Source: Candidatus Aenigmatarchaeota archaeon
GTDB lineage: Archaea > Aenigmatarchaeota > Aenigmatarchaeia > CG10238-14 > SCSR01
Length of the DNA: 64,000 bases
Assembly: GCA_016213525.1 (NCBI GenBank)
Contig: JACRAE010000005.1
Span: 145,405-209,404, forward strand
Direction: 5' to 3'
Made by a program: the position numbers and the translations under genes. Each line of letters starts with the position of its first letter. The first letter of the stretch is position 1. This document shows, piece by piece, positions 21,864 to 64,000 of this stretch. Under the pieces are notes generated by a model that saw only the letters and a program-made list of their open reading frames with translations, ran no database searches and was not told where the DNA came from.

Positions 21864-21884
21864 CCAGAAGCGAATTATTCTTCG

Positions 21885-45135: not shown

Positions 45136-45200
45136 GGTTAGGAATCCCCATTTCCAGTATTTATCCTGTTCGGACGGGATGCGTCCTAGAAGATGTGAAG

Positions 45201-45274: not shown

Positions 45275-45313
45275 AATTCAATATTAATTGTTGGCTTCAC
45301 AATCTTAATTAAC

Positions 45314-47699: not shown

Positions 47700-50600
47700 C
47701 TAGCAGCCCCTCACGCTCACCAGCGCCACCGTCCCCTGCCTCCCCGTCTTCTCTATGCATATCCTGTGGCTCCCCTTGCCGAACTTGTCGGTCCCGTTCA
47801 GCGCTATCCTGCCGTACTGCAGTTCCATGTGCAGCATGCCGTCGCCAGATATCAAATACGATCCAAAGGGCCTCGTCGGGAGCCCCAGGCGCGTCACCGC
47901 CTCGCTCTGGTTCGCCACCACCGCGCAGGACGCCGCCGAGAACGGCACCACTGACCTGAGGGCGCCGAGTGATGTGATGTTGAATCTGTACTCGGACGCC
48001 GCCGCGTCGTTGCACAGCGAGACGAAGCTGCCCTCGTCGCCGGAGTAGACTATACCGGAGGACCTTGTCGAGGAGAGCTCGGACTGGTCGTACGAGCAGG
48101 CGTAAAGGTAGGAAGTGTTCTGCCTGGTGTAGCAGGCCGATGCGGGAGACGTCGAAGTCGATACCGTTCCTTCGCTGGTGCCGTTGATGAATATCATGCG
48201 CATGTCATAGTCCGCGCCCTCGAAGGTGTTGTTGTGGTCCGTGAGGTTGAACGCTGCCGACTGCACGCCTTCTGCCGAGGCGACCCTGTGCCACTTTCCC
48301 CCGACTGTCCTGTTCGCGCCGCCGAGGTAGAGCTGGTAGACTTCGTCTGGAGAGAGGGTTCTGTTTGTTATAATTACTTCGTCTATGGAACCGTTGAAAT
48401 AGCGGCTTTGGCCGAAGGTGTCAGACCCTATTCTGACACCCTGGGAATTTAGTTGCGTGTTCGCTCCCGAAAGCGCTGGACTAGCCACTAAAGTACCATT
48501 CACATAGAAGAATGATGTTGTTGTGTTATATGACCAAGTAACATGGGTCCATACATTATTTGGAATTATGTAATTTGCTGATACGTCATTGCTGTAAAAT
48601 CCCGCAGAAAGTCCACTTACGCCATTATAGTTGGCATAGAGCCATCTTGACTGATTTGTGTTAGTAGACCCATAGACTACAATCGGTCCGTCTCCACTTC
48701 CCCTATAATAAATCCATGCTGCTATTGTGTGGGGAGAATTACCGAGAGGTAGAGAGCTTGGATTTAAGTTGTTTACATAGTCATTTGTACCGTCGAAGAA
48801 CATACATCTCCCAAAATTATTTTTACAAGACGAGTTGGTCATCCATATTGCACCATTGATTACGCCGCCACCGTTCCCAAGTCCACTTGAGTCCGTTACG
48901 TTCAACGTCGAGTTGTCGTTGAACCTATAGTGCAGCACGGTACCAGCAGGAGTGACCGGCTGCAGCGTGGTGTTCGAGTCCTCCACGCCAAAGTACCTGT
49001 ACGTCTTTCCAGATGCGGCGGTGCCGAAGTCGTCGTAGTACCTCGTGACTTCGCGCTGGTAGTGCTCGCGGATCTCGGTGTCTGTGAGGGCGCGAGGATA
49101 CAATCTTACTTCATCAATCGTGCCGTTCCAACTTCTCTCGTTGAACGGGGTCTGTGCCCCTATCTTTGTCGAATAGGAACCGCCGGTACATATCGTTCCT
49201 ATGGTACCGCCACCACCGGATTGTATCCCATTGATGTATATCTGGGCTTTGTTTCCCTTATGAGTCACGGCCACGTGATACCATGTATTGAGTGACAATG
49301 CGTCCACACCATCGACATTAGTCCAACCACTACCCACAACATAAAACCACGCCCTCAGCACGCCTGTACTAGTCGTTGTATACAGACCGTACCCGCAATT
49401 GTCAGCTACAGTGTTCTTTGTAAAAATTGCCTTTAAGCCTTGGCCAGCAGTCGGTATCTGATTAGGATTTACCCAGGCTTCTATGGTCAGATCACCGGAT
49501 ATGTCAAAAATCGAGCTACTCGAAAGATTGACGTTATTGAATCCACCGTCGAAGCTCATGCAGCTGCCGAACTTGCATGATGAGTTTGAAATCCAGGTCG
49601 CGTTCACGGTACCCGTGTTCCCGTTCCCGCTCGAGTCAGTCGCGTTCAGGCCGGAGCCCTCGTCGAGGCGCCAGATTCCAGAAGCGCCGCCGTCATAGTT
49701 GAAGAGCAGCGAGGAATCGTGCTGCGTGACTCCGGACAGCGGGTTCGTCGAGTTCCAGGAGGCAGGATACCTAATGATTACGATTCCAGAGCCTCCTGTA
49801 CCACCAACGCCTCCGGCACCGCTTGCGAATGAAGCACCGCCGCCTCCACCGCCCGTGTTGGCGGTGCCGTCTGCTCCATTGTTGTTTCCGCCACCCGCGC
49901 CGGCATTACCGCCTCCTCCCGACCCGCCCGAACCGGACGTGCCACCCGTCCAAGTTCCACCGCCGCCTCCACCAGCCCTGTACACCAAGGTGCCGTTTAT
50001 GCTGCTCGCCAGTCCAGACCCTCCATTACCGCCTACCGTATTGCTTGGCGCCGTCTGGCCTACTGCACCAGCCCCGCCACCACCGCCATGGGGATAATTG
50101 CCGCCACATGCCGAGTATCCCGTGCCACCACTGTTTCCCTGGCCAGGCGTCCCCGCCACTGGAGACAGGGCACACGCGCTCCCTCCTCCCGAACCTCCAT
50201 GGGACCCGATGCCGGGCCCTCCCGAAGTGTCTCCTCCCCCTCCTCCCTTAGATTCAATGGTGTCGAAACTTGAGTTGGTCCCGTTCAAACCTTCGTTGAC
50301 ACTATCCACGCCTCCTCCCCCACCAGCCCCGATTACTATCGGATATGACCTGGAGGTTACTCTGTGGCCCGTTCCTGCCAAATAACCCCCGGCACCACCA
50401 CCGCCCCCGTATTTTCCACCACCACCTCCCCCTCCCGCTATCACAAGATATTCAACATTACCCGAGCCGCTAGTCACGTTGAACGTCCCGTTCGATGTGA
50501 ACGTGTGTATCTTGTAGCCGTCCGCGTACGTGACGTTGCCGCCCGTTGCTATTATTCCAGGAAGGTCGTACCACGTCAGCGTGCTGTTCGCCACGGACTC

Positions 50601-53600
50601 GATCAGCTCGCTCGAAAACTGCGTGGCGTTGTTCTGAGGGTTGAAGTTCGTCGTGTTCATCCTGCCCATCGTGCCTAGCGAGAACATGAAGTTCTGGTTC
50701 ATTGTGGAGTTGAACGTGTAGTTGAAGCCGAAGAAGTCGGTATGGTTGGAGAAAATGTTGAAGCCGGATTGTGTCGTGTTGGACAGAGTTCTGAAAACAT
50801 TTCTGACATTCGTCGTGGCGAACAACACCTCCTCGTTGTCCGTCGCGTTGTTCTTGGTGAAGTATATCCCGGGCTTCTGCTGGTTTATGCCTGTGTGATA
50901 CAGCTGAAGAATCTCCGAATGATTAAGGGCACGCCTATAGATTCGGGCCTCGTCAATATACCCATTGAATACTGTGTCACCAATGACTGCGTCTTTGGAC
51001 GACGAGACATCATAAACACTTCCAGACGCCGTCTTGTCAAGTGTGCCGTTGATATAGAGCCTCATATTGCCCCCTTCCCTTACCCCCACAACATGACTCC
51101 AGGATCTGACCGGTATCTTAGAATTAGATTGAATCTCAAGGTAACCGACGTTTTCAGTGACGAAATCGATAGTCCCGTCGGTGCCCAGAAGTCTCATGTA
51201 CCATTGCGCATTCCCCCCGCCCGGGTTTCTCTCTCCAACAAAAAATGATCCGGAAACCATGGCGCGGGGATTTACCCACACTTCGGCTGTGAAGTCGCTT
51301 GTTCCGAGATTCAAATTATTGTTGTCTGGCAAAAATACGATATCATCGCTCCCGTCGAAGCTCAGGCAGGAGCTGAACTTACAAGAAGAATTGCTGACAC
51401 GGGTAACTCCACCACTAAGATATCCAGGATTCCTCAGACCCGAAGAATCAGTGACATTCGTTCCAAATCCCTCGTTGAAGTTCCAGTACCCGACCAGTCC
51501 TGGCTCGGCTGTGGTGACGGACGTGCGGTTCTCGGGGAGGGAGAATGGGATGGATATGTTGCCGGGGCCGCCTGGGATCGTGGTGCCGTCCCAGAACTGC
51601 ACGTCGTCTATCCTAACCATATTGTCGTTCGACACAGCCTGATAGAAGAACTTGCCGAACAGGTATCTAAGGTCCGAGAAATACGACTTCGACGAAAGGG
51701 ACGTTGTGGCGGTCTCTTCTAGGTTGGAGTACTCGTCCGTGTAGATTTTCACGTCGACCTTCGGGTCTGACGCCGTGTAGACTAATTCCACCCACCTCGT
51801 CGCCGTGAGGGGCTCCGCTCTGCTAATTCCCGTCGCGTACTCGTTGGTGTTCGTCCAGGTGAAAGCATACATGTTAGAGGTCGATCCCGCGGCGTGCGCC
51901 GCCACCGCGAAGTGTATGGAATCGGCGGTCGCGGACGGATTCTCGCCGGAAAGCGAAGTGGAGTCTGTAAGGCCGAACCTCGCCATGACCGCTTGGCCGC
52001 TGGCGTCGTTTATGTAGTTGTTCAACACGACTTTGAACCTCATCACCCATCCGATGTTGTTGTCGGCGTAGTTTCCGGATCCCAAGACCCGTTGAAGATC
52101 ATAGGTCACCCAGTTATCGTCACCACTCTGGTTGTTGTTCATGTTCAGCGTTCCGTTCGTTATCGTCATCTTTCCAGAAGTCCCCGACCAGCTCGAGTTC
52201 GCCGAAAAGTCGTCCTTGAACTTAGTCCCGCCCTTCGAGTCGACGAATACCCTGACGAATGGGTCGTGAGCGGTCATAAGGAAACTTACGTTGACGCCGG
52301 GTTTGGTCATGTTCATGTTGGGATTGAACGCGTACCTCCACTTGAACTCCTGCTTGTTCCTAGGGTCGAGCCAGTCGGGCACCCCAGCCGCTTTATATCT
52401 TATAATAACGATACCCGAACCTCCCGCTCCGCCCGCATTTGCCGGGCTGCCAGCAGATGCCCTGGCTCCTCCACCGCCCGAACCGGTGTTCGCTGTTCCA
52501 GCCGTTGCAACTGCATTTCCTATAGATCCCGCCCCGCCCCCTCCCGAGCCCCCGGTGCCGGCAGCGACCGTAGCGCCTCCCCCACCTCCGCCAGCCCTAG
52601 TGACTGTAGAGCCGTTTATTCTGGACGATAGTCCAGCCCCTCCAGCACCGCCGGTGGTCCCCGAGTTGTTGCCGCCCGCACCTCCAGCTCCACCACCACC
52701 GCCTCCGACGTCTGCAGCAGAGCTCGACCCACCAATATTTCCCTGTCCAGAAGTTCCAGCCGCCCCGCCAAGTAGCTCCGCCCCACCGCCGCCCGAGCCT
52801 CCAGTTGACGCATTTGTAGTTAAAGCTCCACCGGCACCGCCTCCAGTTGCCATAACTGTTGAAAAAATAGAATTTGTACCATTACCTCCAACGTCGAGAT
52901 TTCCTCCAGCACCGCCGCTTCCGACCGTTATGTTATAGAGCTGTGCCGATACCGAGAGTTCTCCCTCCCTGTAGCCACCGGCACCGCCTCCTCCACCGAC
53001 CCATCCACCGCCGCCTCCACCTCCTGCTATAACAAGGTACTCCACTGTGCCGTTTCCAGACGTGACGTTAAACGTCCCATTTGAGGTGAAAGTGTGTATC
53101 GTATAGCCTTCCGCGTAAGTTATGTTGCCGCCAGTCGCCACTATTTTTTCAGATCCCTTTTTCCACAGAATCCAGCCCTGTTGATTCCAGTCGTAGAAAT
53201 AGACCGTCTTGTTCTGGGTGCCGGAGCCGTACAATGAAATCAAATTCTGGCCGTCGACTTTAATCGCGTCGTCGAAGCTCGCGTTGAAGATTATTTTATT
53301 AGACGAGTTGTACACGGTCATGTTCCTCTCCGTCATGCCGACGCGGATGAAGTCGTTCGATATGTTGACCACGCCGTAGAGCGAGCCGTTCTCGTCCATC
53401 CAGTAGCTGCCTCCAGGGCGGGAGTCGCGCAGCCCGAACTCGAACCCGTCCGAGCCGGCGAGGGTGTAGTTGACTGTGGTGTGGGTGGAGTTAGAGGTGT
53501 AGTTCCACGAGCCCTGCCCTATGCCAAGGAGCTCCCTCACGTCCCTCAGGCTGCCGTCGGACGCGTTGTAGAGGACCGAGGACGCGCCTCCTATTTGGAA

Positions 53601-54497
53601 GACGGACGTGCTGGAGTTGCGGGTGTAGTTTGTGTTGTCGATGATTGAAGTGTAGTTCACAGACCCGCCTGGAATAGAACCGCCCGAATATGTGAAGCTG
53701 GTCTCATTGCCTGCAATCCTTATCACGTCGCCAGTGCTGTTGGGGCCTATCCTGTAGCCGTACGTCAGGGTCGTCTGGTTGCGGGTCGTGTTCCTGACGT
53801 CGACGAGAAGGAAGTCCGACGAGGCCCGGAGCGTGTAGAGGACCTCGTACTCCGCTCCTTGAGAGGAGCGGACGTGGGCAAGCACGCCGGTGCTGGTCAG
53901 GCCGCCGCCCTCGAACGCGAGTTTGGTGTAGCCGGTGCCCCACGACGTGTCCGAGGTGCCGTTCAGGGTGATTCCGAAGTTCGTCGGGACTATCGTTGTT
54001 TGGGGCTCGGTCTTCGACCTCACCGTCTTGACGAGGGTGCTGGTGTTTATCGACGCGAAGCTGCCCTCAGTCCCCACTTTCAAAAAGACGACTTCCATCA
54101 GCTCGTTCTCTAATTTTAGATGGGTCGAGTTCTGGCTCGCGGAAGCGATGCCGGTTATGGTGGTGATGAGGTTGCCTTCCCTGTTGAACGTCCCCTTCGC
54201 CAGCGCCCCGGTCTTTATCGGGAGCTCGAAGCTGAAGGAGTTCGAGTCGGAGTCGACCCTGTAGACGCCGTCGTTCACGTTGATCTGGGCCACCCTCAGC
54301 GTGCCTGTGCCCTCCGCGGCCACCTGGCGCACGAGGTTGTCTATAATCTCCATGTTCTGGCCGGCCTCGCCTATTATGCCGGTCTCCCTCGCCTCGTCAA
54401 GAACGGGCAGGCCGATTCCGAGGACGACCCCTATGCCCACGAAGACGATGAGGGTCACGAGGACGAAGCTTATGAGTTCTGACGCTCCTTTGGGCAC
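47700..54497 (-). CDS. giant (2,265 aa) class-III-signal surface protein: pilin-like N-terminus + 2 Gly-rich modules + 3 LamG-like modules + Cys-terminated cap
   Basis: GTG start. (M)PKG|ASELISFVLVTLIVFVGIGVVLGIGLP. LamG signatures (W.F.EG.G...DSSG..N.G...W.SNSSCKF.SC.SFDG; W.HV...; LYINGT/IYING; IDE[AV]R[IL]Y.RAL...EI..[LH]Y) three times. TIHTFTSNGTFNVTSG.G.VEYLVIAGGGGGGG...GSGIVIIRY twice. Ends ..VSVRGC. Confidence 0.9.
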   Translation of the reverse strand: MPKGASELISFVLVTLIVFVGIGVVLGIGLPVLDEARETGIIGEAGQNMEIIDNLVRQVAAEGTGTLRVAQINVNDGVYRVDSDSNSFSFELPIKTGALAKGTFNREGNLITTITGIASASQNSTHLKLENELMEVVFLKVGTEGSFASINTSTLVKTVRSKTEPQTTIVPTNFGITLNGTSDTSWGTGYTKLAFEGGGLTSTGVLAHVRSSQGAEYEVLYTLRASSDFLLVDVRNTTRNQTTLTYGYRIGPNSTGDVIRIAGNETSFTYSGGSIPGGSVNYTSIIDNTNYTRNSSTSVFQIGGASSVLYNASDGSLRDVRELLGIGQGSWNYTSNSTHTTVNYTLAGSDGFEFGLRDSRPGGSYWMDENGSLYGVVNISNDFIRVGMTERNMTVYNSSNKIIFNASFDDAIKVDGQNLISLYGSGTQNKTVYFYDWNQQGWILWKKGSEKIVATGGNITYAEGYTIHTFTSNGTFNVTSGNGTVEYLVIAGGGGGGGWVGGGGGAGGYREGELSVSAQLYNITVGSGGAGGNLDVGGNGTNSIFSTVMATGGGAGGALTTNASTGGSGGGGAELLGGAAGTSGQGNIGGSSSAADVGGGGGGAGGAGGNNSGTTGGAGGAGLSSRINGSTVTRAGGGGGGATVAAGTGGSGGGGAGSIGNAVATAGTANTGSGGGGARASAGSPANAGGAGGSGIVIIRYKAAGVPDWLDPRNKQEFKWRYAFNPNMNMTKPGVNVSFLMTAHDPFVRVFVDSKGGTKFKDDFSANSSWSGTSGKMTITNGTLNMNNNQSGDDNWVTYDLQRVLGSGNYADNNIGWVMRFKVVLNNYINDASGQAVMARFGLTDSTSLSGENPSATADSIHFAVAAHAAGSTSNMYAFTWTNTNEYATGISRAEPLTATRWVELVYTASDPKVDVKIYTDEYSNLEETATTSLSSKSYFSDLRYLFGKFFYQAVSNDNMVRIDDVQFWDGTTIPGGPGNISIPFSLPENRTSVTTAEPGLVGYWNFNEGFGTNVTDSSGLRNPGYLSGGVTRVSNSSCKFSSCLSFDGSDDIVFLPDNNNLNLGTSDFTAEVWVNPRAMVSGSFFVGERNPGGGNAQWYMRLLGTDGTIDFVTENVGYLEIQSNSKIPVRSWSHVVGVREGGNMRLYINGTLDKTASGSVYDVSSSKDAVIGDTVFNGYIDEARIYRRALNHSEILQLYHTGINQQKPGIYFTKNNATDNEEVLFATTNVRNVFRTLSNTTQSGFNIFSNHTDFFGFNYTFNSTMNQNFMFSLGTMGRMNTTNFNPQNNATQFSSELIESVANSTLTWYDLPGIIATGGNVTYADGYKIHTFTSNGTFNVTSGSGNVEYLVIAGGGGGGGKYGGGGGAGGYLAGTGHRVTSRSYPIVIGAGGGGGVDSVNEGLNGTNSSFDTIESKGGGGGDTSGGPGIGSHGGSGGGSACALSPVAGTPGQGNSGGTGYSACGGNYPHGGGGGAGAVGQTAPSNTVGGNGGSGLASSINGTLVYRAGGGGGGTWTGGTSGSGGSGGGGNAGAGGGNNNGADGTANTGGGGGGASFASGAGGVGGTGGSGIVIIRYPASWNSTNPLSGVTQHDSSLLFNYDGGASGIWRLDEGSGLNATDSSGNGNTGTVNATWISNSSCKFGSCMSFDGGFNNVNLSSSSIFDISGDLTIEAWVNPNQIPTAGQGLKAIFTKNTVADNCGYGLYTTTSTGVLRAWFYVVGSGWTNVDGVDALSLNTWYHVAVTHKGNKAQIYINGIQSGGGGTIGTICTGGSYSTKIGAQTPFNERSWNGTIDEVRLYPRALTDTEIREHYQREVTRYYDDFGTAASGKTYRYFGVEDSNTTLQPVTPAGTVLHYRFNDNSTLNVTDSSGLGNGGGVINGAIWMTNSSCKNNFGRCMFFDGTNDYVNNLNPSSLPLGNSPHTIAAWIYYRGSGDGPIVVYGSTNTNQSRWLYANYNGVSGLSAGFYSNDVSANYIIPNNVWTHVTWSYNTTTSFFYVNGTLVASPALSGANTQLNSQGVRIGSDTFGQSRYFNGSIDEVIITNRTLSPDEVYQLYLGGANRTVGGKWHRVASAEGVQSAAFNLTDHNNTFEGADYDMRMIFINGTSEGTVSTSTSPASACYTRQNTSYLYACSYDQSELSSTRSSGIVYSGDEGSFVSLCNDAAASEYRFNITSLGALRSVVPFSAASCAVVANQSEAVTRLGLPTRPFGSYLISGDGMLHMELQYGRIALNGTDKFGKGSHRICIEKTGRQGTVALVSVRGC
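48900..49100. repeat. direct-repeat block shared by the two giant genes (copy 1)
   Basis: Aligns with 59537..59737 (offset 10,637). Includes an identical run of about 50 nt, gtgacttcgcgctggtagtgctcgcggatctcggtgtctgtgagggcgcg. Confidence 0.8.
53266..53580. repeat. direct-repeat block shared by the two giant genes (copy 1)
   Basis: Aligns with 63687..64000 at a constant offset of 10,421 nt. I estimate roughly 90% identity by eye. Confidence 0.8.
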
Positions 54498-54521
54498 ATT
54501 CTAATCTCGTGGCGGGGTGGC

Positions 54522-54535
54522 TTATTGCTTTCCCA
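54522..54535 (-). promoter_or_regulatory. BRE/TATA-like 14-mer upstream of giant-1
   Basis: Minus-strand gggaaagcaataag, 24 nt before GTG 54497. Identical 14-mer at 55023..55036. Confidence 0.5.
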
Positions 54536-54543: not shown

Positions 54544-54999
54544 TCAGCACGCGGTGGCGTTGACCGAGACGTGGGTGCCGTTCCAGCCGGCCTTTTCGAG
54601 GCAGACCCTCTGGAGCCCCTGTCCGAGCCGAAGGTCCCCAGAGACCGATATGTTGGAATAGGTCAGGTTGAGCCTGATTTTCCCGTTGACAATCAAGCTG
54701 CTGCCCTCGAGGAAGCCCTCCGGAGCCTCTGACCTGTATTCCACCCTCCCGTCGGCGATTCTGTAGCTCCCCCCGCTCACCTGCAAGGCGACCTCCCTCA
54801 CGCTTCCCTCTCCCCCCGATGCGGTGTCGCGGATTGCATTGTCCAAAATCAGCATGCTTCTTTGAGCATCGCCCAGCTCGGCTGACGCCCTTGAGTGATC
54901 GAGTGCAGGCAGACCGAACATCAAGACGGCGGAGACGCCGGCGACGCTGATCAAAACGACTATGACGGACGATATCATCGAGGACGTTCCCTTTCCCAT
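54544..54999 (-). CDS. type IV pilin-like protein; minimal scaffold homologous to the termini of the giant ORFs
   Basis: MGKG|TSSMISSVIVVLISVAGVSAVLMFGLPALD... aligns with the giant-1 N-terminus (GLPVLDEAR..MEIIDNLVRQVAAEGTGTLR). C-terminus RVCLEKAGWNGTHVSVNATAC aligns with both giant C-termini. Confidence 0.8.
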   Translation of the reverse strand: MGKGTSSMISSVIVVLISVAGVSAVLMFGLPALDHSRASAELGDAQRSMLILDNAIRDTASGGEGSVREVALQVSGGSYRIADGRVEYRSEAPEGFLEGSSLIVNGKIRLNLTYSNISVSGDLRLGQGLQRVCLEKAGWNGTHVSVNATAC

Positions 55000-55022: not shown

Positions 55023-55036
55023 CTTATTGCTTTCCC
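55023..55036 (-). promoter_or_regulatory. BRE/TATA-like 14-mer upstream of the 151-aa pilin-like gene
   Basis: Minus-strand gggaaagcaataag, 23 nt before ATG 54999. Confidence 0.5.
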
Positions 55037-56974: not shown

Positions 56975-59900
56975 TCAGCAGTTGGTGGCGTTGATCAGTA
57001 TCCTCGGCCCGTCCTGCCCTATCTTCTTGAAGCACGCCCTCTCCAGGCCCGGTCCCATCCTGAGGTCTCCCAATATCTTAATCCTGTCGTACTGCAGCAC
57101 CATCTGTAGGTTGGACGGCCCGCCCGCCAGATAGGAGCCGAACGATATCGCAGGGACGCCCTGGCTGAAGACGGTTCCCGTGCCATTGCCTATCGTGCCG
57201 CAGTCCCCGGTCGAGAACGGTATTATGGTCTTCAGCGGCCCGGCGGCGGTGAGGTTGAACTTGTACACCGCCCCCGTCTGGTTCCCGCCGACGCCCTCGA
57301 AGCATATCGAGGAGAAGTCCTGCGCCCTGCCGGCCCCGATTATGCCCGAAGCCTTGGCCTGGGAGAACTCGGAGTCGTCGTACGAGCAGGCGTACGGCCT
57401 GGTGACGTTCGTGATGTTGAAGCATCCCGGGCTCGGGGCGGCCGCCGAGATGGACGAATTCGAAGTCGAGCCGTTCACCGTCAGCGCGCGCATGTCGTAG
57501 TCCGCGCCCTCGAAGGTGCTGTTGTGGTCCGTCAGGTTGAACGAGACTGACTGTATCCCGTCGGCGGAGGCGACCCTATGGATGCGGCCGTATATCGACT
57601 CCGAGTCCTGCGTCTGGACGTACTCGTGCATCACCTCATCTGACGTGAGGGCGCGCTTCCAAACCTTGACGTTGTCCACCGTGCCGTTCAGGTATCCGTG
57701 GGTCGCGTCGTTGGGGCTGGACGACCTCGCCCCTATCGTGAATATGCCTGTGTCATCTTGTATCGTCCCGGAAAATGATGCAGATGAAACCCTGGTCCCG
57801 TTTACGTAGAGGGTGACGTTCTTGACGACGTCATCGACGACCAAAGTCGCATGTACCCATGTATCGAGAGGAAATATTGTTCCCGGACCGGAAGACACGG
57901 TTGTCTGGGTTGTGCTCCCATTATATATTATCCCTCTGATTGATGGAGTCGTCCCATCCCAGAAGAGCATGTACCCCTCGTAGTCCCCTGTCACGTCCTC
58001 CTTCCCGGCTATCCCTTGGTTGGCGTTGCCGGATATGTTCCCGAGCCTCTTCGTCCAGGCGGACACGGTCAGGCTCTTGTGGTTCAGGCTCGGGGAGTTC
58101 TCGACCTTCACGTAGTCGTCCATACCGTCGAACCTCAGCGCATTCCCCAGCTTGTCATCCGACCCATGGACTCCTCCCGTCAGGTTGCCGGTGTTACCGT
58201 TCCCGCTGGAATCCAGGGTGTAGTTGGAATAGATGAAAGTGGCGTTCGAGCTCCCCGCGTTGCTTCCGTCGTATATCCTCATGTTGTCTATGGTGGCGGT
58301 CAGCGTCCTCGATCCCGATCCTTCCTTTCCGTTTGCGTGCTGCAGGTACCTCAAGTTCTGTATCGTGGCAGGAACCGACCTGGTGACGGACCCGACCAGG
58401 GTGCTCCTCTGGGGATCGGAGAAGACGGACATTGCCATGGCGGTCGCGTTCAGCCTCTCCACGCGCATGTAGTATGTCGTACTGGAGCTCAGAGTGGTCC
58501 CAGTCACGATGGACGCGTCCGTCCCGTTGTCTATGTATTCCGGATGCATCCTGTTGCCGTCGGCCCCGTCGTATCCAAAGTTGACGCCGATTCCATCACC
58601 GCTCGCCGTGTCGTAGACATCCTGACTGTCGTTGGTAAGCCAGAACACCCTGTGGGACGGTATGTTGGACGCCGTCCACCTGAACTCGAAATTCGCCACC
58701 CATCTAGTGTTGCTGAGGTTCCGCCCCAGATCGTACCACACTCTGCTTTCGACGGCGTCCGCGCCGAAACCCGTCACCTGTCCGTTCGAGACCGCGACGC
58801 CGGACCCGACCTGCGTCCATCCCCCGGAAGAGGAGTAGTTGAAGCTGATGTCCGGGAGGTCCGCGTCGTTGAACTTCCACCATCCAACCAGGTCGCCGCC
58901 GTGCCTCTGGGCGCCGCCGAGGTAGAGCTGATAGACCTCGTCGGGGGACAGGCTCCTGTTCACTATGATTAAATCGTCAATCATCCCTCCTAGGAAGCCG
59001 GTGGACCGGGCCCTGCCCAGATCGAGGTTGTATGTCGGGCCCAAGGAGCTCGGATTGAAGCTGAGCTTGTCGTATGTCTCCATGTTGCCGCCGTCGAAGA
59101 ACACCCTGGCGTTGCCACGGGTCAGGTTGTTGTCGTATGTGACGGTGAGCATGTGCCATTTCTCATCGTCGGTTATCTTTCCGATTGACGTCACGTCGAG
59201 GAGTCCCTGCGCGCCGTTGCCGTTGGCTATTTCATAGTCTATCGTGCCGTCGGTGTTTGATTCCAGTCCTATTCCAACGTTCGCCCACGTGTCGTCTTTG
59301 TTGTCAAGTATGTAGTCCTTCGTCGCCCCTCTCTTCTTGAACCACGTGTTTATGGTGAACTTAGAGTTGCTCTTGTGCATCCATGCCCAGTTGCTGATGT
59401 TTCCCAGCTGGACATAGTCGTTAGAGTCGTCGAAGCTCATGCAGCCGCCGAAGCTGGCCATGCATGACGTATTTGAAATCCATGCCGCTCCATTTACAAC
59501 AGAGCCTGTAATATTGTTACCGGAAGCGTCCGTCGCGTTCAACGTCGAGTTGTCGTTGAACCTGTAGTGCAGCACCGTTCCCGCGGGCGTCACCGGCTGC
59601 AGCGTCGTGTTCGAGTCCTCCACGCCGAAGTAGCGGTAAGTCTTCCCGTAGGTGGCGGTGCCGAAATCGTCGTAGTATTTAGTGACTTCGCGCTGGTAGT
59701 GCTCGCGGATCTCGGTGTCTGTGAGGGCGCGGGGATAGATACGAACTTCGTCGAGATAGCCGTTGAAGAAGTTAGCAACTCCGCCTCTGGCGCCCATTAT
59801 CAAATTTGTCGGGTTCGGGTTTAAGGTGACAGACAATGCATACTGAGACTCCATAATACCATCGACATAAATTCGGCTAACGCTGCCGTCATATGTTCCT

Positions 59901-62900
59901 ACAACATGATGCCATATGTTGTCGTTGAACACCGTCCTAGTCTTCGGGGCGGCGTTTCCCTGCAGGGCAAAATATATCATATGGTCGTCTGACCCGGCGG
60001 TTCCGGCATGAGTAAGAGCGTAGCCGTTAGTGTTGTATCCTCCTTTGTCTATTATGCCGGCGTCAATTGACGGCGCTCCCGGACTCTTTATCCAGGCTTC
60101 CAAGGAGATCTTGTTATTGATGTTCAGGGACGTGCCGTTGCCGGCATTTATATAATCATTTGATCCATCGAAATAAATACAGCCGCCATATTTACAGGAA
60201 GAATTGCTAATCCAAGCAGGTCCGCTTAGAAGAGTTCCCGTGTTCCCGTTCCCGCTCGCGTCGGTCGCGTTCAGCCCGGAGCCCTCGTCGAAGCGCCAGA
60301 TTCCGGCAGCGCCGCCGTCGTACATGAAGAACGGTGTGGTAAAGGAAGTCGCTCCGTTAGTTTGGTTGACCGTGCCAAAGTTCGGATAGTTGTCTATAGT
60401 TGCGAGGTAGTCGGCGCGGATTTCGTCCTGTGATAACGCACGGGAATATGCCTTAAGGTTGTCTATCATGCCGTTGAAGAATACCGAGCCCCCAGATGTG
60501 GATCCTACTCTGAACTTACATGTCTGGTTGCAATTGATGTTGTTTATCGTGCCTACTATCGTGTCTGTGCTGGTGCTTTCTACCCCGTCTACGTACAGGC
60601 TCATGCTGTCTTTACCGTATCCGGTCGGAGTTCTCCTCGCCACACCAACCGCATGGTGCCAGTTTCCATCAGCGTAATTCGCAGACGTGTCTCTCTGGTG
60701 ATAATTAGAGTTGTCTCCGCCTTGGACAAGCCAGCTGACATGACCCCCAGAAGTAATTAGAAGCTGGTAGCCAGCGTTGTTGTCTATGTTCTTGCTGACT
60801 AGGGTTCCGGCCGAGGTCACGGTCGTCCTGAACCACACTTCCATGGTGAAGTCCTGTGTCATGTTGAGTGCGAGCGTGTTGTTGACCTCAATGTAGTCGT
60901 TCGAGCCGTCAAAGCTTATGCAGCTGCCGAAGTTGTTCTTACACGACGAGTTCGTTATCCATGTAGGACTGCTTGTGAGTGTGGCGGTGTTGTTGTTCCC
61001 GGTAGAGTCATAGGCCGTCGTACCCCCACCCTCATTGAACCTCCACCACCCGACGAGCGAGCCGTCGAACAAATCGTAGTAGGTCATCGTCGAGTTCGCG
61101 ATGGACTCGATTAGCTCGTTGGAGAAAACAGAATAATTATTTTGAGGGTTGAAGACAGTTGTGTTCATCCTGCCCATAGTGCCGAGGGCGAACATGAAGT
61201 TCTGATTCATGGTGGAGTTGAACGTGTAGTTGAAGCCAAAGAAGTTGGTGTGGTTGGAGAATATCTGGAAGTTGGAGGCGGTCCCGACGTTGCTGTTGGC
61301 GGATGTCCTGTTCACGTTCTTGAAATTCGTCGTCGCGAACAGGACCTCCTCGTTGTCCGTAGCGTTGTTCTTCGTGAAGTAGACGCCGGGCTTCTGCTGG
61401 TTGAGACCCGTTAGATATAATTGTCGAATCTCCGATGGACTCAATGCACGGTTGTATACTCGGGCCTCGTCCAGTTCTCCCCGTAAAGAGGCTGCTGCGT
61501 CGTGACGGACCGCGAAAAGTATGTAATTTCCGTTGCTAGTGAAGCTTCCAGTCCTTGAAGTGGCCGCTTCCTCTATTCCGTCCACATAGACCCTCATCGT
61601 GGTCCCATCGTACGTGCCTACAACATGATGCCACGCGTTATCGTTGAAAAGGGTGTTGGTTGTCACGCTCGATCCCAGCGCCCCAAAGTATATTTTGTGG
61701 TCCGATGCGCCCGCGGTTCCGGCGTGAGAAAACCCTATTTCGCTGTTTCCACTGTACATTATAACAGTATCTAGACTATTTGCTCCCGGAGACTTGACCC
61801 AAATAGAGTAAGACGCGCTGTTCCTTCCAGACAATTCAAAGTTAATCCCCGTACCGTTGATGTAGTCTCCGGAGCCGTCGAAGCTCACGCAGCCTCCAAA
61901 TTTACAAGATGAATTTGAAACCCAGCTAGTTCCGCCATAGAGCCTCTCTGTGTTACCATTGCCGCTGGAGTCTGTTATGTTCGTTCCCCTGCCCTCGTTG
62001 AAGTTCCAGTATCCGACCAGCCCGGGCTCGGCCGTAGTGACGGAGGTGCGGTTCTCGGGGAGGGAGAACGAGATGGTCGTATTGGAATAGGAGCTTACGT
62101 TGCTCGTGTCCTCGTAGAACTCAAGATCGTCCACGTTGCCGCTCATCCAACCAGCCTGGCTCTGGACCACGTTCAAGATTTTGATGTACCTGAGGTCCCT
62201 TACGGTGGAAGGGACCGCGACGGTCGACCTTCCGAGAACCGTTCTGTACTTGTCAGAGAATAGGGTGAAAGTGAATGCGGTCGAGTTCTCTCTCTTCAGT
62301 TCCCACCAGTATTCCGTGTTGTCGACGAACGTGTAGAATATCTCGCCCAGCTGGCTGCCTGGAAGTGTCGAGTCGTCCACGATGAACGACCTGTAGCTGC
62401 GGCCGCCATTCCTGTCTATATAGAGGAACAAGCCGTCCTGGGTGGAGCTGGCGGACGTGTTGGTGCTGGAAATGCCTATGACTATGCCGGCTCCGACGCC
62501 CGCGGAGCTGGTCAGGAGGCCCGTCCTGAACCTCATCGTCCAGATGTTCCCGACGTTCCTCCCATAGTCGAAGTACATGTTGTCGTTTGTGCCGTCGTTC
62601 AGGCCCATGAAGTAGGCGGACTCTGTGCTCTTGTTGACTCGTATCTTGTTAGAATCGGCCGGTATCCATATGGAGTCTGCCTGAGATTGGCTGGAGTAGG
62701 ACGAAAAATCTTCTCTCAGGTTGGCTAGACTGTCGCCCGAGTCCACAAATATCCTCACGAATGGGTCGTGTGCCGTCATCAGGTAGGTGTAGTTGACGAC
62801 CGGGCTCCCTGCCCTCGAGAAGGAATATCTCCACTTGAACGCCTGTTTGTTCCTCGAATCGAGCCAGTCAGGTACGTTGCTGTCTCGATACTCTGCCAAT

Positions 62901-64000
62901 ATCTCATCGGGTGTGAGCGCCTTGTGCCAGACCTTCACGCCGTCCATCAGACCGTTGAAATTGTAGTATCCAGACCCTTCATTGCCCAAAATAAACGCGC
63001 CTAGAGACCCGCTACCCTGCGGCAGCTTGCTCCATTGGGCAGTTGGGTTGTTACCAGAGGTGCTCTTCGCGGTCTGGACAAGGTTGCCGTCTATGTACAG
63101 CTGCCTGGTCGCGTTGTCCTTGTAGACGACTGCGAGGTGCGTCCAGCTGTTGATGGTGGGTGTGTAGACGAAGGACTCATCGTTCTGGTACGAGCCATAG
63201 TATATCGTCGTCACGCCGGAGCTGCTGAACATACGAAGGTGGTACCCACTGTTGTACGCGCCCCATTCCTTCTGCATGATGTACGACCAATCGTTGCTCG
63301 GGAGCGCCCTCGGTTTTATCCACACGCCGATTGTCAACGGGTTGCTGGTCGAGTCCAGACTAGCGGAGTCCGGGGCCTTCACGCTGTTGCCGACGCCATC
63401 GAAGCTCAGGCAATACCCATAATTCTCCCTACAGGAGGAGTTCGTTATCCGCGTCACGTTGGTTACCGTGGCGGTGTTCGCGTTCCCGCTCGAATCCGTC
63501 GCGTTCCCACTGATTTCGTTGAACTTCCACCACAAACCTAGGTTCTCTCCGGCCACGGTCTTTGAATCGCCGTATCCCTTCTGCCAGGGGACCCATTTTT
63601 GCCCACTCCAGTCGTAGAAATATACGGTCTTGTTCTGCGTTCCCGCCCCATAAGTCGATATCATGTCTTGCCTGTCGACCTTCACAGCGTCGTCGAAGCT
63701 CGCGTTGAAGATTATTTTATTAGACGAGTTGTACACGGTCATGTTCCTCTCCGTCATCCCGACGCGGATGAAGTCGTTCGATATGTTCACGATGCCGTAT
63801 AGGGAGCCGTTCTCGTCCAGCCAATAGCTGCCGCCGGGTCTGCTGTCCCGTACGCCGAACTCATACCCGTCCGAGCCGGCGAGGGTGTAGTTGACGGTCG
63901 TGTGGGTGGAGTTCGAGGTGTAGTTCCACGAGCCCTGGCCTATGCCGAGGAGCTCCCTCACGTCCCTCAGGCTGCCGTCGGACGCGTTGTAAAGGACCGA
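56975..64000 (-). CDS. giant surface protein, paralog 2 (partial: 5' end beyond the window; at least 2,341 aa here) with at least 6 LamG-like modules and Cys-terminated cap
   Basis: The frame stays open to nt 64000 (SVLYNASDGSLRDVRELLGIG...). The track's M at 63961 is an internal GTG. Colinear with giant-1 residues from about 306 onward. Six W.F.E..G...D.SGN.NT modules. Ends ..ILINATNC. Confidence 0.9.
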   Translation of the reverse strand, partial: SVLYNASDGSLRDVRELLGIGQGSWNYTSNSTHTTVNYTLAGSDGYEFGVRDSRPGGSYWLDENGSLYGIVNISNDFIRVGMTERNMTVYNSSNKIIFNASFDDAVKVDRQDMISTYGAGTQNKTVYFYDWSGQKWVPWQKGYGDSKTVAGENLGLWWKFNEISGNATDSSGNANTATVTNVTRITNSSCRENYGYCLSFDGVGNSVKAPDSASLDSTSNPLTIGVWIKPRALPSNDWSYIMQKEWGAYNSGYHLRMFSSSGVTTIYYGSYQNDESFVYTPTINSWTHLAVVYKDNATRQLYIDGNLVQTAKSTSGNNPTAQWSKLPQGSGSLGAFILGNEGSGYYNFNGLMDGVKVWHKALTPDEILAEYRDSNVPDWLDSRNKQAFKWRYSFSRAGSPVVNYTYLMTAHDPFVRIFVDSGDSLANLREDFSSYSSQSQADSIWIPADSNKIRVNKSTESAYFMGLNDGTNDNMYFDYGRNVGNIWTMRFRTGLLTSSAGVGAGIVIGISSTNTSASSTQDGLFLYIDRNGGRSYRSFIVDDSTLPGSQLGEIFYTFVDNTEYWWELKRENSTAFTFTLFSDKYRTVLGRSTVAVPSTVRDLRYIKILNVVQSQAGWMSGNVDDLEFYEDTSNVSSYSNTTISFSLPENRTSVTTAEPGLVGYWNFNEGRGTNITDSSGNGNTERLYGGTSWVSNSSCKFGGCVSFDGSGDYINGTGINFELSGRNSASYSIWVKSPGANSLDTVIMYSGNSEIGFSHAGTAGASDHKIYFGALGSSVTTNTLFNDNAWHHVVGTYDGTTMRVYVDGIEEAATSRTGSFTSNGNYILFAVRHDAAASLRGELDEARVYNRALSPSEIRQLYLTGLNQQKPGVYFTKNNATDNEEVLFATTNFKNVNRTSANSNVGTASNFQIFSNHTNFFGFNYTFNSTMNQNFMFALGTMGRMNTTVFNPQNNYSVFSNELIESIANSTMTYYDLFDGSLVGWWRFNEGGGTTAYDSTGNNNTATLTSSPTWITNSSCKNNFGSCISFDGSNDYIEVNNTLALNMTQDFTMEVWFRTTVTSAGTLVSKNIDNNAGYQLLITSGGHVSWLVQGGDNSNYHQRDTSANYADGNWHHAVGVARRTPTGYGKDSMSLYVDGVESTSTDTIVGTINNINCNQTCKFRVGSTSGGSVFFNGMIDNLKAYSRALSQDEIRADYLATIDNYPNFGTVNQTNGATSFTTPFFMYDGGAAGIWRFDEGSGLNATDASGNGNTGTLLSGPAWISNSSCKYGGCIYFDGSNDYINAGNGTSLNINNKISLEAWIKSPGAPSIDAGIIDKGGYNTNGYALTHAGTAGSDDHMIYFALQGNAAPKTRTVFNDNIWHHVVGTYDGSVSRIYVDGIMESQYALSVTLNPNPTNLIMGARGGVANFFNGYLDEVRIYPRALTDTEIREHYQREVTKYYDDFGTATYGKTYRYFGVEDSNTTLQPVTPAGTVLHYRFNDNSTLNATDASGNNITGSVVNGAAWISNTSCMASFGGCMSFDDSNDYVQLGNISNWAWMHKSNSKFTINTWFKKRGATKDYILDNKDDTWANVGIGLESNTDGTIDYEIANGNGAQGLLDVTSIGKITDDEKWHMLTVTYDNNLTRGNARVFFDGGNMETYDKLSFNPSSLGPTYNLDLGRARSTGFLGGMIDDLIIVNRSLSPDEVYQLYLGGAQRHGGDLVGWWKFNDADLPDISFNYSSSGGWTQVGSGVAVSNGQVTGFGADAVESRVWYDLGRNLSNTRWVANFEFRWTASNIPSHRVFWLTNDSQDVYDTASGDGIGVNFGYDGADGNRMHPEYIDNGTDASIVTGTTLSSSTTYYMRVERLNATAMAMSVFSDPQRSTLVGSVTRSVPATIQNLRYLQHANGKEGSGSRTLTATIDNMRIYDGSNAGSSNATFIYSNYTLDSSGNGNTGNLTGGVHGSDDKLGNALRFDGMDDYVKVENSPSLNHKSLTVSAWTKRLGNISGNANQGIAGKEDVTGDYEGYMLFWDGTTPSIRGIIYNGSTTQTTVSSGPGTIFPLDTWVHATLVVDDVVKNVTLYVNGTRVSSASFSGTIQDDTGIFTIGARSSSPNDATHGYLNGTVDNVKVWKRALTSDEVMHEYVQTQDSESIYGRIHRVASADGIQSVSFNLTDHNSTFEGADYDMRALTVNGSTSNSSISAAAPSPGCFNITNVTRPYACSYDDSEFSQAKASGIIGAGRAQDFSSICFEGVGGNQTGAVYKFNLTAAGPLKTIIPFSTGDCGTIGNGTGTVFSQGVPAISFGSYLAGGPSNLQMVLQYDRIKILGDLRMGPGLERACFKKIGQDGPRILINATNC
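59537..59737. repeat. direct-repeat block shared by the two giant genes (copy 2)
   Basis: Partner of 48900..49100. Confidence 0.8.
63687..64000. repeat. direct-repeat block shared by the two giant genes (copy 2)
   Basis: Partner of 53266..53580. The similarity runs to the window edge. Confidence 0.8.

What the first reader, a model, noticed from the sequence alone, without database searches (positions are those of the whole stretch)
54544..54999. A 151-aa pilin-like ORF is the 'empty scaffold' of the giants, containing only the N- and C-terminal modules
Seen:
- The small ORF immediately upstream of giant-1 aligns with giant-1 at both ends.
- N-terminal alignment: ..FGLPALDHSRASAELGDAQRSMLILDNAIRDTASGGEGSVREVALQVSGGSYRI against ..IGLPVLDEARETGIIGEAGQNMEIIDNLVRQVAAEGTGTLRVAQINVNDGVYRV.
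- C-terminal alignment: LNLTYSNISVSGDLRLGQGLQRVCLEKAGWNGTHVSVNATAC against giant-1 LHMELQYGRIALNGTDKFGKGSHRICIEKTGRQGTVALVSVRGC and giant-2 LQMVLQYDRIKILGDLRMGPGLERACFKKIGQDGPRILINATNC.

Inference: the giants look like this small pilin fold with an insertion of more than 2,000 aa between its N-terminal helix/first strands and its last strands. That is a pilin-display architecture. The small protein could be the major subunit and the giants minor or tip subunits of the same filament.
Basis: partly seen in the sequence, partly recalled or inferred. Interest (0 to 1): 0.75.

Follow-up and report, generated by a model that had tools for sequence, protein, structure and literature searches.

The report
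Pilin-like scaffold split by giant inserts
A 151-residue pilin-like protein of a tiny symbiotic archaeon is the bare version of a surface-protein base, and its two giant neighbours carry the same base split open by about 2,000 residues of sugar-binding-type domains, probably for attaching to other cells.

Summary
ORF 54544-54999(-) matches giant-1 at the N-terminus (BLASTP E=3e-19) and at the extreme C-terminus (3e-7). It matches giant-2's C-terminus at 2e-10. All are far above shuffles (z=12-27).

The window is a Candidatus Aenigmarchaeota (DPANN) contig. The ORF belongs to Pfam DUF7289, an uncharacterised family with an archaeal type IV pilin-like N-terminus.

A profile search found 354 relatives of 98-3085 aa, in three architectures:
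- The bare ~150-170 aa domain.
- The whole domain plus a C-terminal extension.
- 48 of the best 150 have the domain split, with the C-module exactly at the protein's end.

The direct empty scaffold of the giants is a ~420-aa class, not the 151-aa protein. P0018 (421 aa) equals giant-1 residues 3-277 plus 2106-2265 (59% and 56% identity). It sits at giant-1's orthologous position in a collinear relative.

All seven ~420-aa-class scaffold relatives of 1572-3085 aa, giant-1 and giant-2 among them, and three of 627-656 aa carry their LamG or glycine-rich arrays in one low-confidence loop of that scaffold.

Packing of the N- and C-modules is inferred, not shown. The "major subunit" idea is unsupported. 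This is a new archaeal, giant, insertion-type variant of modular pilins.

The parts
54544..54999 (-). Small ORF, 151 aa. It is a DUF7289-family archaeal pilin-like protein and the minimal, uninterrupted form of the domain.
   Evidence: Searches give the ORF. Pfam DUF7289 scores 32.4 bits against a cut-off of 27. It is 100% identical to a hypothetical protein of a Candidatus Aenigmarchaeota MAG. dN/dS is 0.21.
54910..54999 (-). Class III (prepilin-type) signal peptide and hydrophobic N-terminal helix of the small ORF: MGKG|TSSMISSVIVVLISVAGVSAVLMFGL.
   Evidence: Read directly from the sequence. hhalign of the family profile against the window's canonical pilins gives 94.4% probability, E=9.3e-8. 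The best PDB sequence hit is the N-terminal helix of an archaeal pilus subunit, 8fk7, at E=0.025.
54715..54999 (-). N-module of the small ORF, residues 1 to about 95: the helix plus the first three predicted strands.
   Evidence: BLASTP against giant-1 gives E=3e-19. The N-module HMM scores 92 bits.
54544..54684 (-). C-module of the small ORF, residues about 106-151 plus the stop codon. It holds four predicted strands, Cys133 and the terminal Cys151, and four N-X-S/T sequons.
   Evidence: BLASTP gives 3e-7 and 2e-10. The C-module HMM scores 42 bits. The two Cys co-occur in 54 sequences and are both absent in 60, with 2 exceptions.
55023..55036 (-). Promoter-like motif GGGAAAGCAATAAG, ending 23 nt before the small ORF's ATG.
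   Evidence: It occurs exactly twice in the window. Variants of the form GAAA-N-AATAAG lie at the same distance before P0018, the L005 giant, and the L002 small ORF and giant. Its function is inferred.
54521..54534 (-). The same 14-nt motif, ending 23 nt before giant-1's GTG start.
47700..54497 (-). Giant-1, 2265 aa. It is the split DUF7289-type scaffold carrying LamG and glycine-rich arrays.
   Evidence: Pfam finds 3 Laminin_G_3, 2 Gly_rich_2 and an N-terminal DUF7289 match of 21.8 bits. It has 77 N-glycosylation sequons.
54198..54497 (-). Giant-1 N-module, residues 1 to about 100, starting MPKG|ASELISFVLVTLIVFVGIGVVL.
   Evidence: The 117 bits are circular, because giant-1 is in that HMM. 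With the independent A1 profile the score is 76 bits.
53667..54197 (-). Giant-1 domain X, N-terminal half, residues about 100-277.
   Evidence: 59% identical to P0018 residues 3-277. The P0018 AF2 model has pLDDT 93.6 and beta-supersandwich-like Foldseek hits.
48183..53666 (-). Giant-1 insert, residues about 278-2105 (~1,830 aa), made of LamG and Gly_rich_2 arrays. It is absent from the 421-aa orthologue.
47853..48182 (-). Giant-1 domain X, C-terminal half, residues about 2106-2215.
   Evidence: 56% identical to P0018 residues 262-421.
47700..47852 (-). Giant-1 C-module, residues about 2216-2265 plus the stop codon, ending ...RICIEKTGRQGTVALVSVRGC.
   Evidence: A C-module HMM built from the mini forms scores 42.9 bits at residues 2222-2265.
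56975..64000 (-). Giant-2. It is cut by the window end. The full length is 2661 aa (P0005), so 333 N-terminal residues lie outside the window. It has 6 Laminin_G_3 domains.
   Evidence: The six-frame ORF stays open to position 64000.
56975..57112 (-). Giant-2 C-module: the last 45 residues plus the stop codon, ending ...RACFKKIGQDGPRILINATNC.

Best explanation
The small ORF and the two giants are paralogues of one archaeal type IV pilin-like family (Pfam DUF7289) in a DPANN archaeon (Candidatus Aenigmarchaeota).

The common unit has three parts:
- A prepilin-type leader and a long hydrophobic N-terminal helix.
- Three beta strands (the N-module).
- A four-strand C-terminal module, closed in this clade by a Cys-Cys pair whose second Cys is the last residue.

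The 151-aa protein is this unit with nothing in it. In the giants the unit is opened between the N- and C-modules by a ~280-residue beta-rich domain X. One loop of domain X is in turn opened by about 1,830-2,220 aa of LamG (concanavalin-A-like lectin) and glycine-rich domains.

Inferred mechanism:
- After Sec export and cleavage by a prepilin peptidase, the helix holds the protein in the membrane or in a type IV filament.
- The two ends of the chain re-form the base domain.
- The inserted, heavily N-glycosylated lectin arrays project outward as an adhesin, plausibly for host or substrate attachment.
- A subunit this bulky can sit only at a filament tip or stay membrane-anchored.
- The small paralogue is more likely a partner or minor subunit of the same base type than the major pilin.

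Shown: homology of both ends, the family-wide split architecture, the orthologous 421-aa scaffold, the single insertion hot-spot, and the pilin-like N-terminus.

Inferred: physical N/C packing, the disulfide, processing, filament association and the adhesive role.
For: - Both-end homology with shuffle controls.
- The C-module occurs in only three proteins of the window.
- The profile search found 354 relatives. Forty are minis. Forty-eight are long forms with the C-module ending exactly at the C-terminus.
- The same C-module is contiguous with the N-module in the minis. It is also contiguous, at residues ~116-162, in proteins that then continue for up to ~920 aa. So N plus C form one autonomous domain, and the C-module is not a terminal signal.
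- The ~380-aa class is N-module, one LamG, then C-module.
- P0018 (421 aa) equals giant-1 residues 3-277 plus 2106-2265. It lies at giant-1's place in a collinear locus whose Dph2 and HerA are 85% identical to the window's.
- All ten ~420-aa-class scaffold relatives of 627-3085 aa that were aligned carry their extra sequence between P0018 residues ~264 and ~272. That is the lowest-confidence stretch of the beta-rich part of an otherwise very confident AF2 model, with pLDDT 93.6 and pTM 0.90.
- The inserts are LamG and Gly_rich_2 domains.
- The pilin-like N-terminus is supported by hhalign at 94%.
- The two Cys co-occur in 54 sequences, are both absent in 60, with 2 exceptions.
- Sequon density is 3.0-3.4 per 100 aa.
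- Precedents exist. Modular pilins, including a ConA-like lectin pilin, form a tip complex with a small pilin (PMC8179133, PMC9934059). Archaeal T4P system 1 occurs in DPANN, with at least five minor pilins and large adhesin-like proteins (PMC4858521; 10.64898/2026.04.22.720090).
Against: - No pilus ATPase, platform protein or prepilin peptidase lies in the 64-kb window or next to any family member examined.
- The small ORF does not match the curated archaeal pilin N-terminal models PF07790 or TIGR02537.
- Foldseek of the P0018 model returns beta-supersandwich carbohydrate-enzyme and YidC P1 domains. No pilin appears in the top 50.
A DCA on 117 spliced sequences showed no enrichment of N-C pairs.
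- AF2 of the small ORF with a 3-sequence alignment failed, at pLDDT 37.
- The collinear relative lacks the small ORF, so it is not an obligatory partner at this locus.
Confidence: 0.7

Rival explanations
1. These proteins are never filament subunits. The class III signal peptide is used only for export and for a cleaved, helix-anchored display on the cell membrane, as proposed for archaeal solute-binding proteins with such signals (bindosome). The giants would be membrane-anchored adhesins, and the small protein a membrane-anchored stub.
For: - No assembly genes lie nearby.
- The genes sit singly among housekeeping genes.
- A 2026 survey reports many archaeal class III signal peptide proteins that are binding proteins rather than pilins.
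- The beta part of the scaffold looks like a carbohydrate-module supersandwich, not a pilin head.
Against: - Related minis occur as the last gene of four-gene operons in which every product has a pilin-like N-terminus. This resembles minor-pilin sets.
- The helix is about 58 residues long in the model, as in pilins, and much longer than a simple membrane anchor needs.
Confidence: 0.3
2. The small protein is the major, polymerising subunit of a filament, and the giants are minor or tip subunits of that same filament.
For: - It has a small size, a pilin-like N-terminus and the same base modules as the giants.
- It lies immediately upstream of giant-1, and that pairing is conserved in L002 and L003.
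Against: - Canonical pilin genes that pass TIGR02537 are elsewhere in the window, including three in tandem.
- Family relatives are single-copy members of multi-pilin operons.
- The collinear relative with a 1572-aa giant and the 421-aa scaffold has no small ORF at this locus.
- The small ORF and giant-1 have identical promoter-like motifs, so the sequence gives no hint of much higher expression.
Confidence: 0.1
3. The C-terminal module is a self-standing C-terminal sorting, anchoring or processing tag, for example one that uses the terminal Cys. It would be shared by unrelated surface proteins rather than being half of a split fold.
For: - It ends exactly at the C-terminus in 48 long proteins, 32 of which end in Cys.
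- N/C packing is not directly shown.
Against: - The same module is internal (residues ~116-162) in at least 14 proteins that continue for hundreds of residues.
- About half of the family lacks both Cys.
- In the window it never occurs without the N-module.
- It is predicted as four ordinary beta strands with pLDDT about 95.
Confidence: 0.05

Closest known systems
Modular type IV pilins of bacteria (Streptococcus sanguinis PilB with a vWA module and PilC with a concanavalin-A-like lectin module, forming a tip complex with the small pilin PilA; PMC8179133, PMC9934059)
   Same: - A pilin-type N-terminus carries a functional adhesion module.
- A ConA/LamG-superfamily lectin module is involved.
- A small non-modular pilin-like protein is encoded together with two bulky modular ones.
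- Bulk implies a tip location.
   Different: - In the bacterial cases the module is grafted after the pilin moiety through a short linker. Here the chain returns, and the last ~45 residues are the missing end of the base domain.
- This case is archaeal (DUF7289), not the bacterial IPR012902 type.
- The sizes here are 2,265-3,085 aa, against a largest surveyed bacterial case of 860 aa.
- No experimental data exist for this family.
Minor pilins with a domain inserted into the pilin beta-sheet: GspK (alpha-domain) of type II secretion and ComZ (beta-solenoid) of Thermus, as summarised in PMC8179133
   Same: The extra module lies inside the pilin domain rather than after it, and these are thought to be tip subunits.
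   Different: - Those inserts are single domains of roughly 100-400 residues (my recollection).
- Here the insertion is nested, with domain X inside the base and lectin arrays inside one loop of domain X.
- The insert length here ranges from 0 to about 2,650 aa at one site across relatives.
- There is no sequence similarity, and the insertion here is shown only at sequence level.
Archaeal type IV pilus 'system 1' (Epd-like) minor pilins and large DUF2341 adhesin-like proteins (PMC4858521; 10.64898/2026.04.22.720090)
   Same: - Found in methanogens, Thermococcales and DPANN.
- Several class III signal peptide proteins besides the major pilin.
- Large ConA-clan adhesin-like proteins are proposed at the tip.
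   Different: - Those proteins are encoded in loci with the ATPase and platform genes. The genes here are stand-alone.
- DUF2341 was not detected.
- The split-scaffold architecture was not found in the sections of those two papers that were read or term-searched.
- Equivalence of DUF7289 with any Epd minor pilin was not tested.
Pfam DUF7289 (PF23960), family of unknown function
   Same: The small ORF passes the gathering score, and 28 of 41 mini relatives match.
   Different: - Only profile positions 2-91 of 238 are matched.
- The C-module and the insertion architecture are not captured by the model.
- No paper in the library mentions the family.

Membership tests
Archaeal type IV pilin-like proteins (class III signal peptide) | A short charged leader ending in K/R-G or A, followed by about 20 or more hydrophobic residues at the extreme N-terminus | tested here: met
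   The sequences read MGKG|TSSMISSVIVVLISVAGVSAVLMFGL (small ORF), MPKG|ASELISFVLVTLIVFVGIGVVL (giant-1) and MKG|ASALVSAVLVMLISVVAV (giant-2, P0005). hhalign against the window's canonical pilins gives 94.4%, E=9.3e-8.
Archaeal type IV pilin-like proteins (class III signal peptide) | A match to the curated N-terminal models (Pfam PF07790 Pilin_N, NCBIfam TIGR02537) | tested here: not met
   The small ORF has no hit to either model (at E<=0.01; at E<=1). The window's other small pilin genes do pass TIGR02537, at 25.7 and 26.8 bits against a cut-off of 20.
Archaeal type IV pilin-like proteins (class III signal peptide) | Cleavage by a prepilin peptidase (PibD, EppA or FlaK) | not testable with these tools
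   No peptidase_A24 gene was found among the window ORFs scanned.
Archaeal type IV pilin-like proteins (class III signal peptide) | Assembly into a filament by a PilB/TadA-type ATPase and a TadC-type platform | not testable with these tools
   No such genes lie in the window or within 8-10 kb of the relatives examined.
Pfam DUF7289 (PF23960) | A whole-protein score at or above the gathering score of 27 bits | tested here: met
   The small ORF scores 32.4 bits. Giant-1 alone scores 21.8 bits, below the cut-off. It is tied to the family by the A1 profile at 76 bits for the N-module and 21 bits for the C-module.
Modular pilins (pilin module plus functional module) | A pilin-type N-terminus plus an additional recognisable functional domain | tested here: met
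   Giant-1 has 3 Laminin_G_3 and 2 Gly_rich_2 domains. Giant-2 has 6 Laminin_G_3 domains.
Modular pilins (pilin module plus functional module) | The module is grafted C-terminally to a complete pilin moiety through a linker | tested here: not met
   In the giants the C-module of the base domain lies only at the extreme C-terminus. The graft type does exist in other family members, such as P0066 and P0098.
Insertion-type minor pilins (GspK or ComZ type) | The extra domain is inserted between strands of the pilin beta domain, with both flanks packing into one fold | tested here: inconclusive
   The sequence-level split is clear. Packing was not verifiable.
Major pilin | The most abundant subunit, forming the filament shaft | not testable with these tools
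   Indirect evidence argues against it: canonical pilins lie elsewhere, relatives sit in a minor-pilin-like operon context, and the small ORF is absent from the collinear relative.
PilY1 / DUF2341 tip adhesins | A DUF2341 or PilY1 domain | tested here: not met
   Pfam scans of both giants list Laminin_G_3 and other Laminin_G, Sialidase and Pentaxin families, but no DUF2341 and no PilY1.

The most novel reading that the evidence does not exclude
The DUF7289 base would be a general loop-display scaffold of DPANN archaea. The proposal is that a pilin-like helix plus a small beta domain tolerates insertions at two fixed sites, and that lineages grow or shrink lectin arrays there from 0 to about 2,650 aa, helped by gene conversion between paralogues. 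This would retarget adhesins that sit at the tips of type IV filaments and mediate attachment to host cells. The small paralogue would be the insert-free partner that nucleates or stabilises the tip complex, like PilA with PilB and PilC in S. sanguinis.
Probability: 0.3. Interest if true: 0.75.

Novelty: new variant of a known kind. Interest (0 to 1): 0.6.

Why it matters
DPANN archaea live attached to other cells, and how they recognise and hold their hosts is largely unknown.

This family offers concrete candidates:
- They are surface proteins with a pilin-type anchor.
- Their binding part is a variable array of lectin-like domains displayed from one fixed loop.
- Natural "empty", one-domain and giant versions exist that can be compared directly.

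It also extends the idea of modular pilins, so far surveyed only in bacteria, in three ways. It reaches archaea. It includes an insertion rather than a C-terminal fusion design. And it reaches sizes three to four times larger than the largest bacterial example.

The scaffold with its permissive loop could also be of practical interest for surface display.

Tried and rejected
- **AF2 of the small ORF.** With only its three close orthologues the model was useless, at pLDDT 37.
- **Model coordinates.** They are not exposed, so the key question of whether the C-module strands contact the N-module could not be read from the good P0018 model.
- **Covariation.** Mean-field DCA on 117 spliced N+C sequences (Meff about 99) recovered a few within-module hairpin pairs. 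N-C pairs were not enriched in the top 100 (9 seen, 15 expected), so the result is inconclusive.
- **A cryptic second C-module.** I asked whether the giants hold a complete small domain at residues 1-153 plus a second C-module copy, because BLAST and HMM alignments ran on to residue ~153. This was rejected. C-module HMMs hit only the true C-terminus. A weak residual similarity remains unexplained (z=4.1; 8 of 2000 shuffles).
- **Pseudogene or remnant.** Rejected by conserved length, 75% and 67% orthologues and dN/dS of 0.21.
- **DNA-level homology arms.** blastn found no similarity between the small ORF and the giants, so cassette recombination through such arms is not supported.
- **Word-indexed protein searches.** They returned only 3, 10 and 12 hits. 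GTDB genome scans gave 0 and 3 loci, all from unnamed archaeal MAGs. Cluster look-up gave no organism names. Taxonomic spread beyond Aenigmarchaeota and Nanohaloarchaeota is therefore unknown.
- **Other libraries.** NCBIfam had no family for the small ORF or P0018. A PDB sequence search found only the N-terminal helix, at E=0.025. No paper mentions DUF7289.
Full report
**What is at the coordinates.** ORF 54544..54999 on the minus strand encodes 151 aa from an ATG. It ends 46 nt before the GTG start of giant-1 (47700..54497, 2265 aa). Giant-2 (56975 to the window end) lies further upstream on the same strand. A bifunctional-nuclease-domain gene and two plus-strand genes, RpoL and Dph2, separate it from the small ORF. 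The small protein is 100% identical to a hypothetical protein of a Candidatus Aenigmarchaeota MAG, so the window comes from a DPANN archaeon.

**Checking the observation.**
- BLASTP of the small ORF against giant-1 gives two separate HSPs. The N-terminal one has 33% identity and E=3e-19. The other pairs residues 99-151 with giant-1 residues 2212-2265 at E=3e-7.
- Against giant-2, residues 107-151 align with the last 45 residues at 42% identity and E=2e-10.
- Shuffle controls put the real scores 12-27 standard deviations above the mean. None of 2000 shuffles (300 for the whole giants) reached them.
- A C-module HMM built without the small ORF hits only three places in all six frames of the window: the C-termini of the small ORF, giant-1 and giant-2.
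- Giant-2's missing N-terminus was recovered as P0005 (2661 aa, 99.96% identical). It also has the N-module.
- The small ORF is under purifying selection, with dN/dS of 0.21. Its orthologues have exactly the same length.

**What family it is.**
- Pfam places the small ORF in DUF7289, at 32.4 bits against a cut-off of 27, matching only profile positions 2-91 of 238.
- Its N-terminus (MGKG|TSSMISSVIVVLISV...) has the form of an archaeal class III (prepilin) signal peptide.
- A profile of 41 small relatives aligns with the five canonical pilin-like genes of the same window over the first 32 columns, at 94% probability and E=9e-8.
- The curated pilin N-terminal models are not matched by the small ORF, but the other small pilin genes of the window do match them.
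- The only PDB sequence similarity is to the N-terminal helix of an archaeal pilus subunit, at E=0.025.
- No paper in the library mentions DUF7289.

**The family-wide picture.** An exhaustive profile search found 354 relatives at E<=1e-3, from 98 to 3085 aa. Local domain mapping of the best 150 shows three architectures.
1. Forty "minis" of 150-172 aa match end to end.
2. At least 14 proteins have the whole mini domain, with the C-module at residues ~116-162, followed by a C-terminal extension of up to ~920 aa.
3. Forty-eight proteins of 332-3085 aa have the N-module at the start and the C-module ending exactly at the last residue.

Architectures (1) and (2) show that N plus C form one contiguous autonomous domain. 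They also show that the C-module is not a terminal sorting tag. Architecture (3) is that same domain split open.
- In the ~380-aa class the insert is a single LamG domain.
- In a sub-clade that includes the window's three proteins, the C-module carries a Cys and the protein ends in a second Cys.
- The two Cys are present together in 54 sequences and absent together in 60, with two exceptions. This points to a disulfide across the last hairpin. That is an inference, and the counts are not phylogenetically independent.

**The true empty scaffold of the giants.**
- P0018 (421 aa) aligns with giant-1 residues 3-277 at 59% identity. Its residues 262-421 align with giant-1 residues 2106-2265 at 56%.
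- It lies on a 169-kb contig whose gene order is collinear with the window: a 1572-aa giant, the BFN nuclease, RpoL, Dph2 (85% identical), P0018, a small SWIM protein, a 280-aa protein, and HerA/DUF87 (85% identical).
- P0018 thus sits exactly where giant-1 sits in the window, and that locus has no small ORF.
- Giant-1 is therefore this 420-aa scaffold plus about 1,830 aa.
- In an alignment anchored on P0018, all ten ~420-aa-class scaffold relatives of 627-3085 aa that were aligned carry their extra residues between P0018 residues ~264 and ~272. These include both giants of the window.
- AF2 folds P0018 with high confidence, at pLDDT 93.6 and pTM 0.90. The model has a 58-residue N-terminal helix, three strands (67-94), a large beta-rich middle, and four C-terminal strands (376-420). 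Apart from the N-terminal leader, its least confident stretch is residues 261-280, exactly the insertion site.
- Foldseek relates the beta part to beta-supersandwich modules of glycoside hydrolases, galactose mutarotase and the YidC P1 domain (TM up to 0.56 on the target). No pilin head domain appears in the top 50.
- The giants are therefore nested constructs: N-module, then domain X with its lectin and glycine-rich arrays, then C-module.
- The small ORF lacks domain X, and it also lacks a short hairpin that other minis have.
- Its closest non-orthologous relative is giant-2's own N+C modules, at 44% identity. It is probably a stripped-down paralogue that arose within this lineage.

**What could not be shown.**
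- The tools gave no model coordinates.
- A DCA on 117 spliced sequences was uninformative.

The packing is inferred from three facts:
- The two modules are the only non-helical parts of a conserved 151-aa protein.
- They are contiguous in two of the three architectures.
- They are conserved whatever the insert is (LamG, domain X or giant arrays).

I put this inference at about 0.8.

**Function and the "major subunit" idea.** The inserts are LamG/ConA-like lectin domains and glycine-rich domains, with 3.0-3.4 N-glycosylation sequons per 100 aa. This fits extracellular adhesins. I found no evidence that the small protein is a major pilin.
- Canonical pilin genes lie elsewhere in the window, at 16798-17232 and as three in tandem at 20923-22298.
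- In four other DPANN contigs the mini relatives are the last gene of a four-gene operon. For the two whose sequences I read (L006, L007), every product has a pilin-like N-terminus, one of them with a bacterial-like G|F..TLEA motif. This is the pattern of minor-pilin sets.
- The collinear relative lacks the small ORF at this locus.
- The small ORF and giant-1 are each preceded, at the same distance, by the exact 14-mer GGGAAAGCAATAAG. That motif occurs nowhere else in the window. Variants precede the homologous genes in two other genomes. This suggests separate but alike, possibly leaderless, promoters.
- No pilus ATPase, platform protein or prepilin peptidase is in the window.

Filament association thus remains an inference. 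Simple membrane anchoring through the cleaved helix is a serious rival.

**Comparison with what is known.**
- Bacterial "modular pilins" carry adhesion modules on a pilin moiety. S. sanguinis PilC carries a ConA-like lectin module, and the small pilin PilA stabilises it in a tip complex with PilB.
- GspK and ComZ are cited there as pilins with a domain inserted into the pilin sheet.
- The bacterial survey's largest example had 860 residues and did not cover archaea.
- For archaea, large adhesin-like proteins and five or more minor pilins are described for T4P system 1, which also occurs in DPANN. The sections of those two papers that I read or term-searched do not mention a split scaffold.

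I therefore rate this as a new variant of a known kind. It is archaeal, of the insertion type, nested, very large, and backed by a natural series from empty to giant at one site.

**Verdict.**
- Observation: confirmed.
- Interpretation: partly supported. The architecture holds. The "empty scaffold" is better represented by the ~420-aa class. The "major subunit" idea is not supported.
- Interest: 0.6.

Noticed in passing
window 53186-53579 vs 63607-64000; 48891-49100 vs 59528-59737; 49609-49705 vs 60234-60330; 50566-50954 vs 61074-61471: Giant-1 and giant-2 share patches of 76-90% nucleotide identity, up to 394 nt long. Their proteins are otherwise only about 41% identical. This looks like mosaic gene conversion between the two giant genes.
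   Followed up: partly
window 55023-55036 and 54521-54534 (minus strand); L005 and L002 upstream regions: The exact 14-mer GGGAAAGCAATAAG ends 23 nt before the start codons of the small ORF and giant-1, and occurs nowhere else in the window. GAAA-N-AATAAG variants sit at the same distance before the homologous genes in two other genomes. Other window genes show ordinary TATA-like boxes. It may be a family-specific promoter with leaderless transcripts.
   Followed up: partly
window 20923-21336, 21344-21820, 21885-22298 (+), then 22298-24550 (+); also 16798-17232 (-) and 14196-14588 (+): Five small genes have canonical archaeal pilin N-termini (MKG[ILV]SP...), and two of them pass TIGR02537. Three are in tandem and are followed directly by a 750-aa beta-helix plus LamG protein.
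   Followed up: partly
window 33328-36474 (-) and 42524-44497 (-): There are further large putative surface proteins. One is 1048 aa with Gly_rich_2, a NosD beta-helix and LamG. Another is 657 aa with a NosD beta-helix. The genome invests heavily in LamG, beta-helix and glycine-rich surface proteins.
   Followed up: no
L006 8089-11076; L007 3477-6226; L012 1-2595; L013; one ENA contig without DNA: Non-Cys DUF7289 minis are always the last gene of a tight operon of about 350-430 aa, about 139-214 aa, about 187-211 aa and about 160-170 aa. In L006 and L007, whose sequences were read, all four have pilin-like N-termini. One is a DUF7287 member and one has a bacterial-style G|F..TLEA motif. This may be an archaeal counterpart of the four-minor-pilin tip set.
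   Followed up: partly
giant-1 residues ~96-165 (window ~54003-54212, minus strand): There is weak similarity between the small ORF's C-module and the start of domain X in giant-1 (Smith-Waterman z=4.1; 8 of 2000 shuffles reach it). The C-module HMMs do not detect it. Domain X may have grown from duplicated strands of the base domain, or it may be chance.
   Followed up: partly
window 45134-46585 (+), 45200-45274 (-), 44605-44679 (-): The N-terminal ~56 codons of the longest HerA/DUF87 ORF overlap a tRNA-Pro(GGG) gene on the other strand. Alignment with the 85%-identical orthologue starts at 45302, so the real start is probably there. A second tRNA-Pro(UGG) lies 520 nt away.
   Followed up: partly
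window 47487-47684 (-) and 56375-56929 (-): A 66-aa SWIM zinc-finger ORF directly follows giant-1. A 184-aa bifunctional-nuclease-domain protein with an N-terminal hydrophobic segment directly follows giant-2. Both neighbours are conserved in the collinear relative L005.
   Followed up: no
small ORF residues 111, 116, 140, 147 (window 54556-54669, minus strand): All four N-X-S/T sequons of the small protein lie in the C-module and none in the N-module. The giants have 71-77 sequons each.
   Followed up: no
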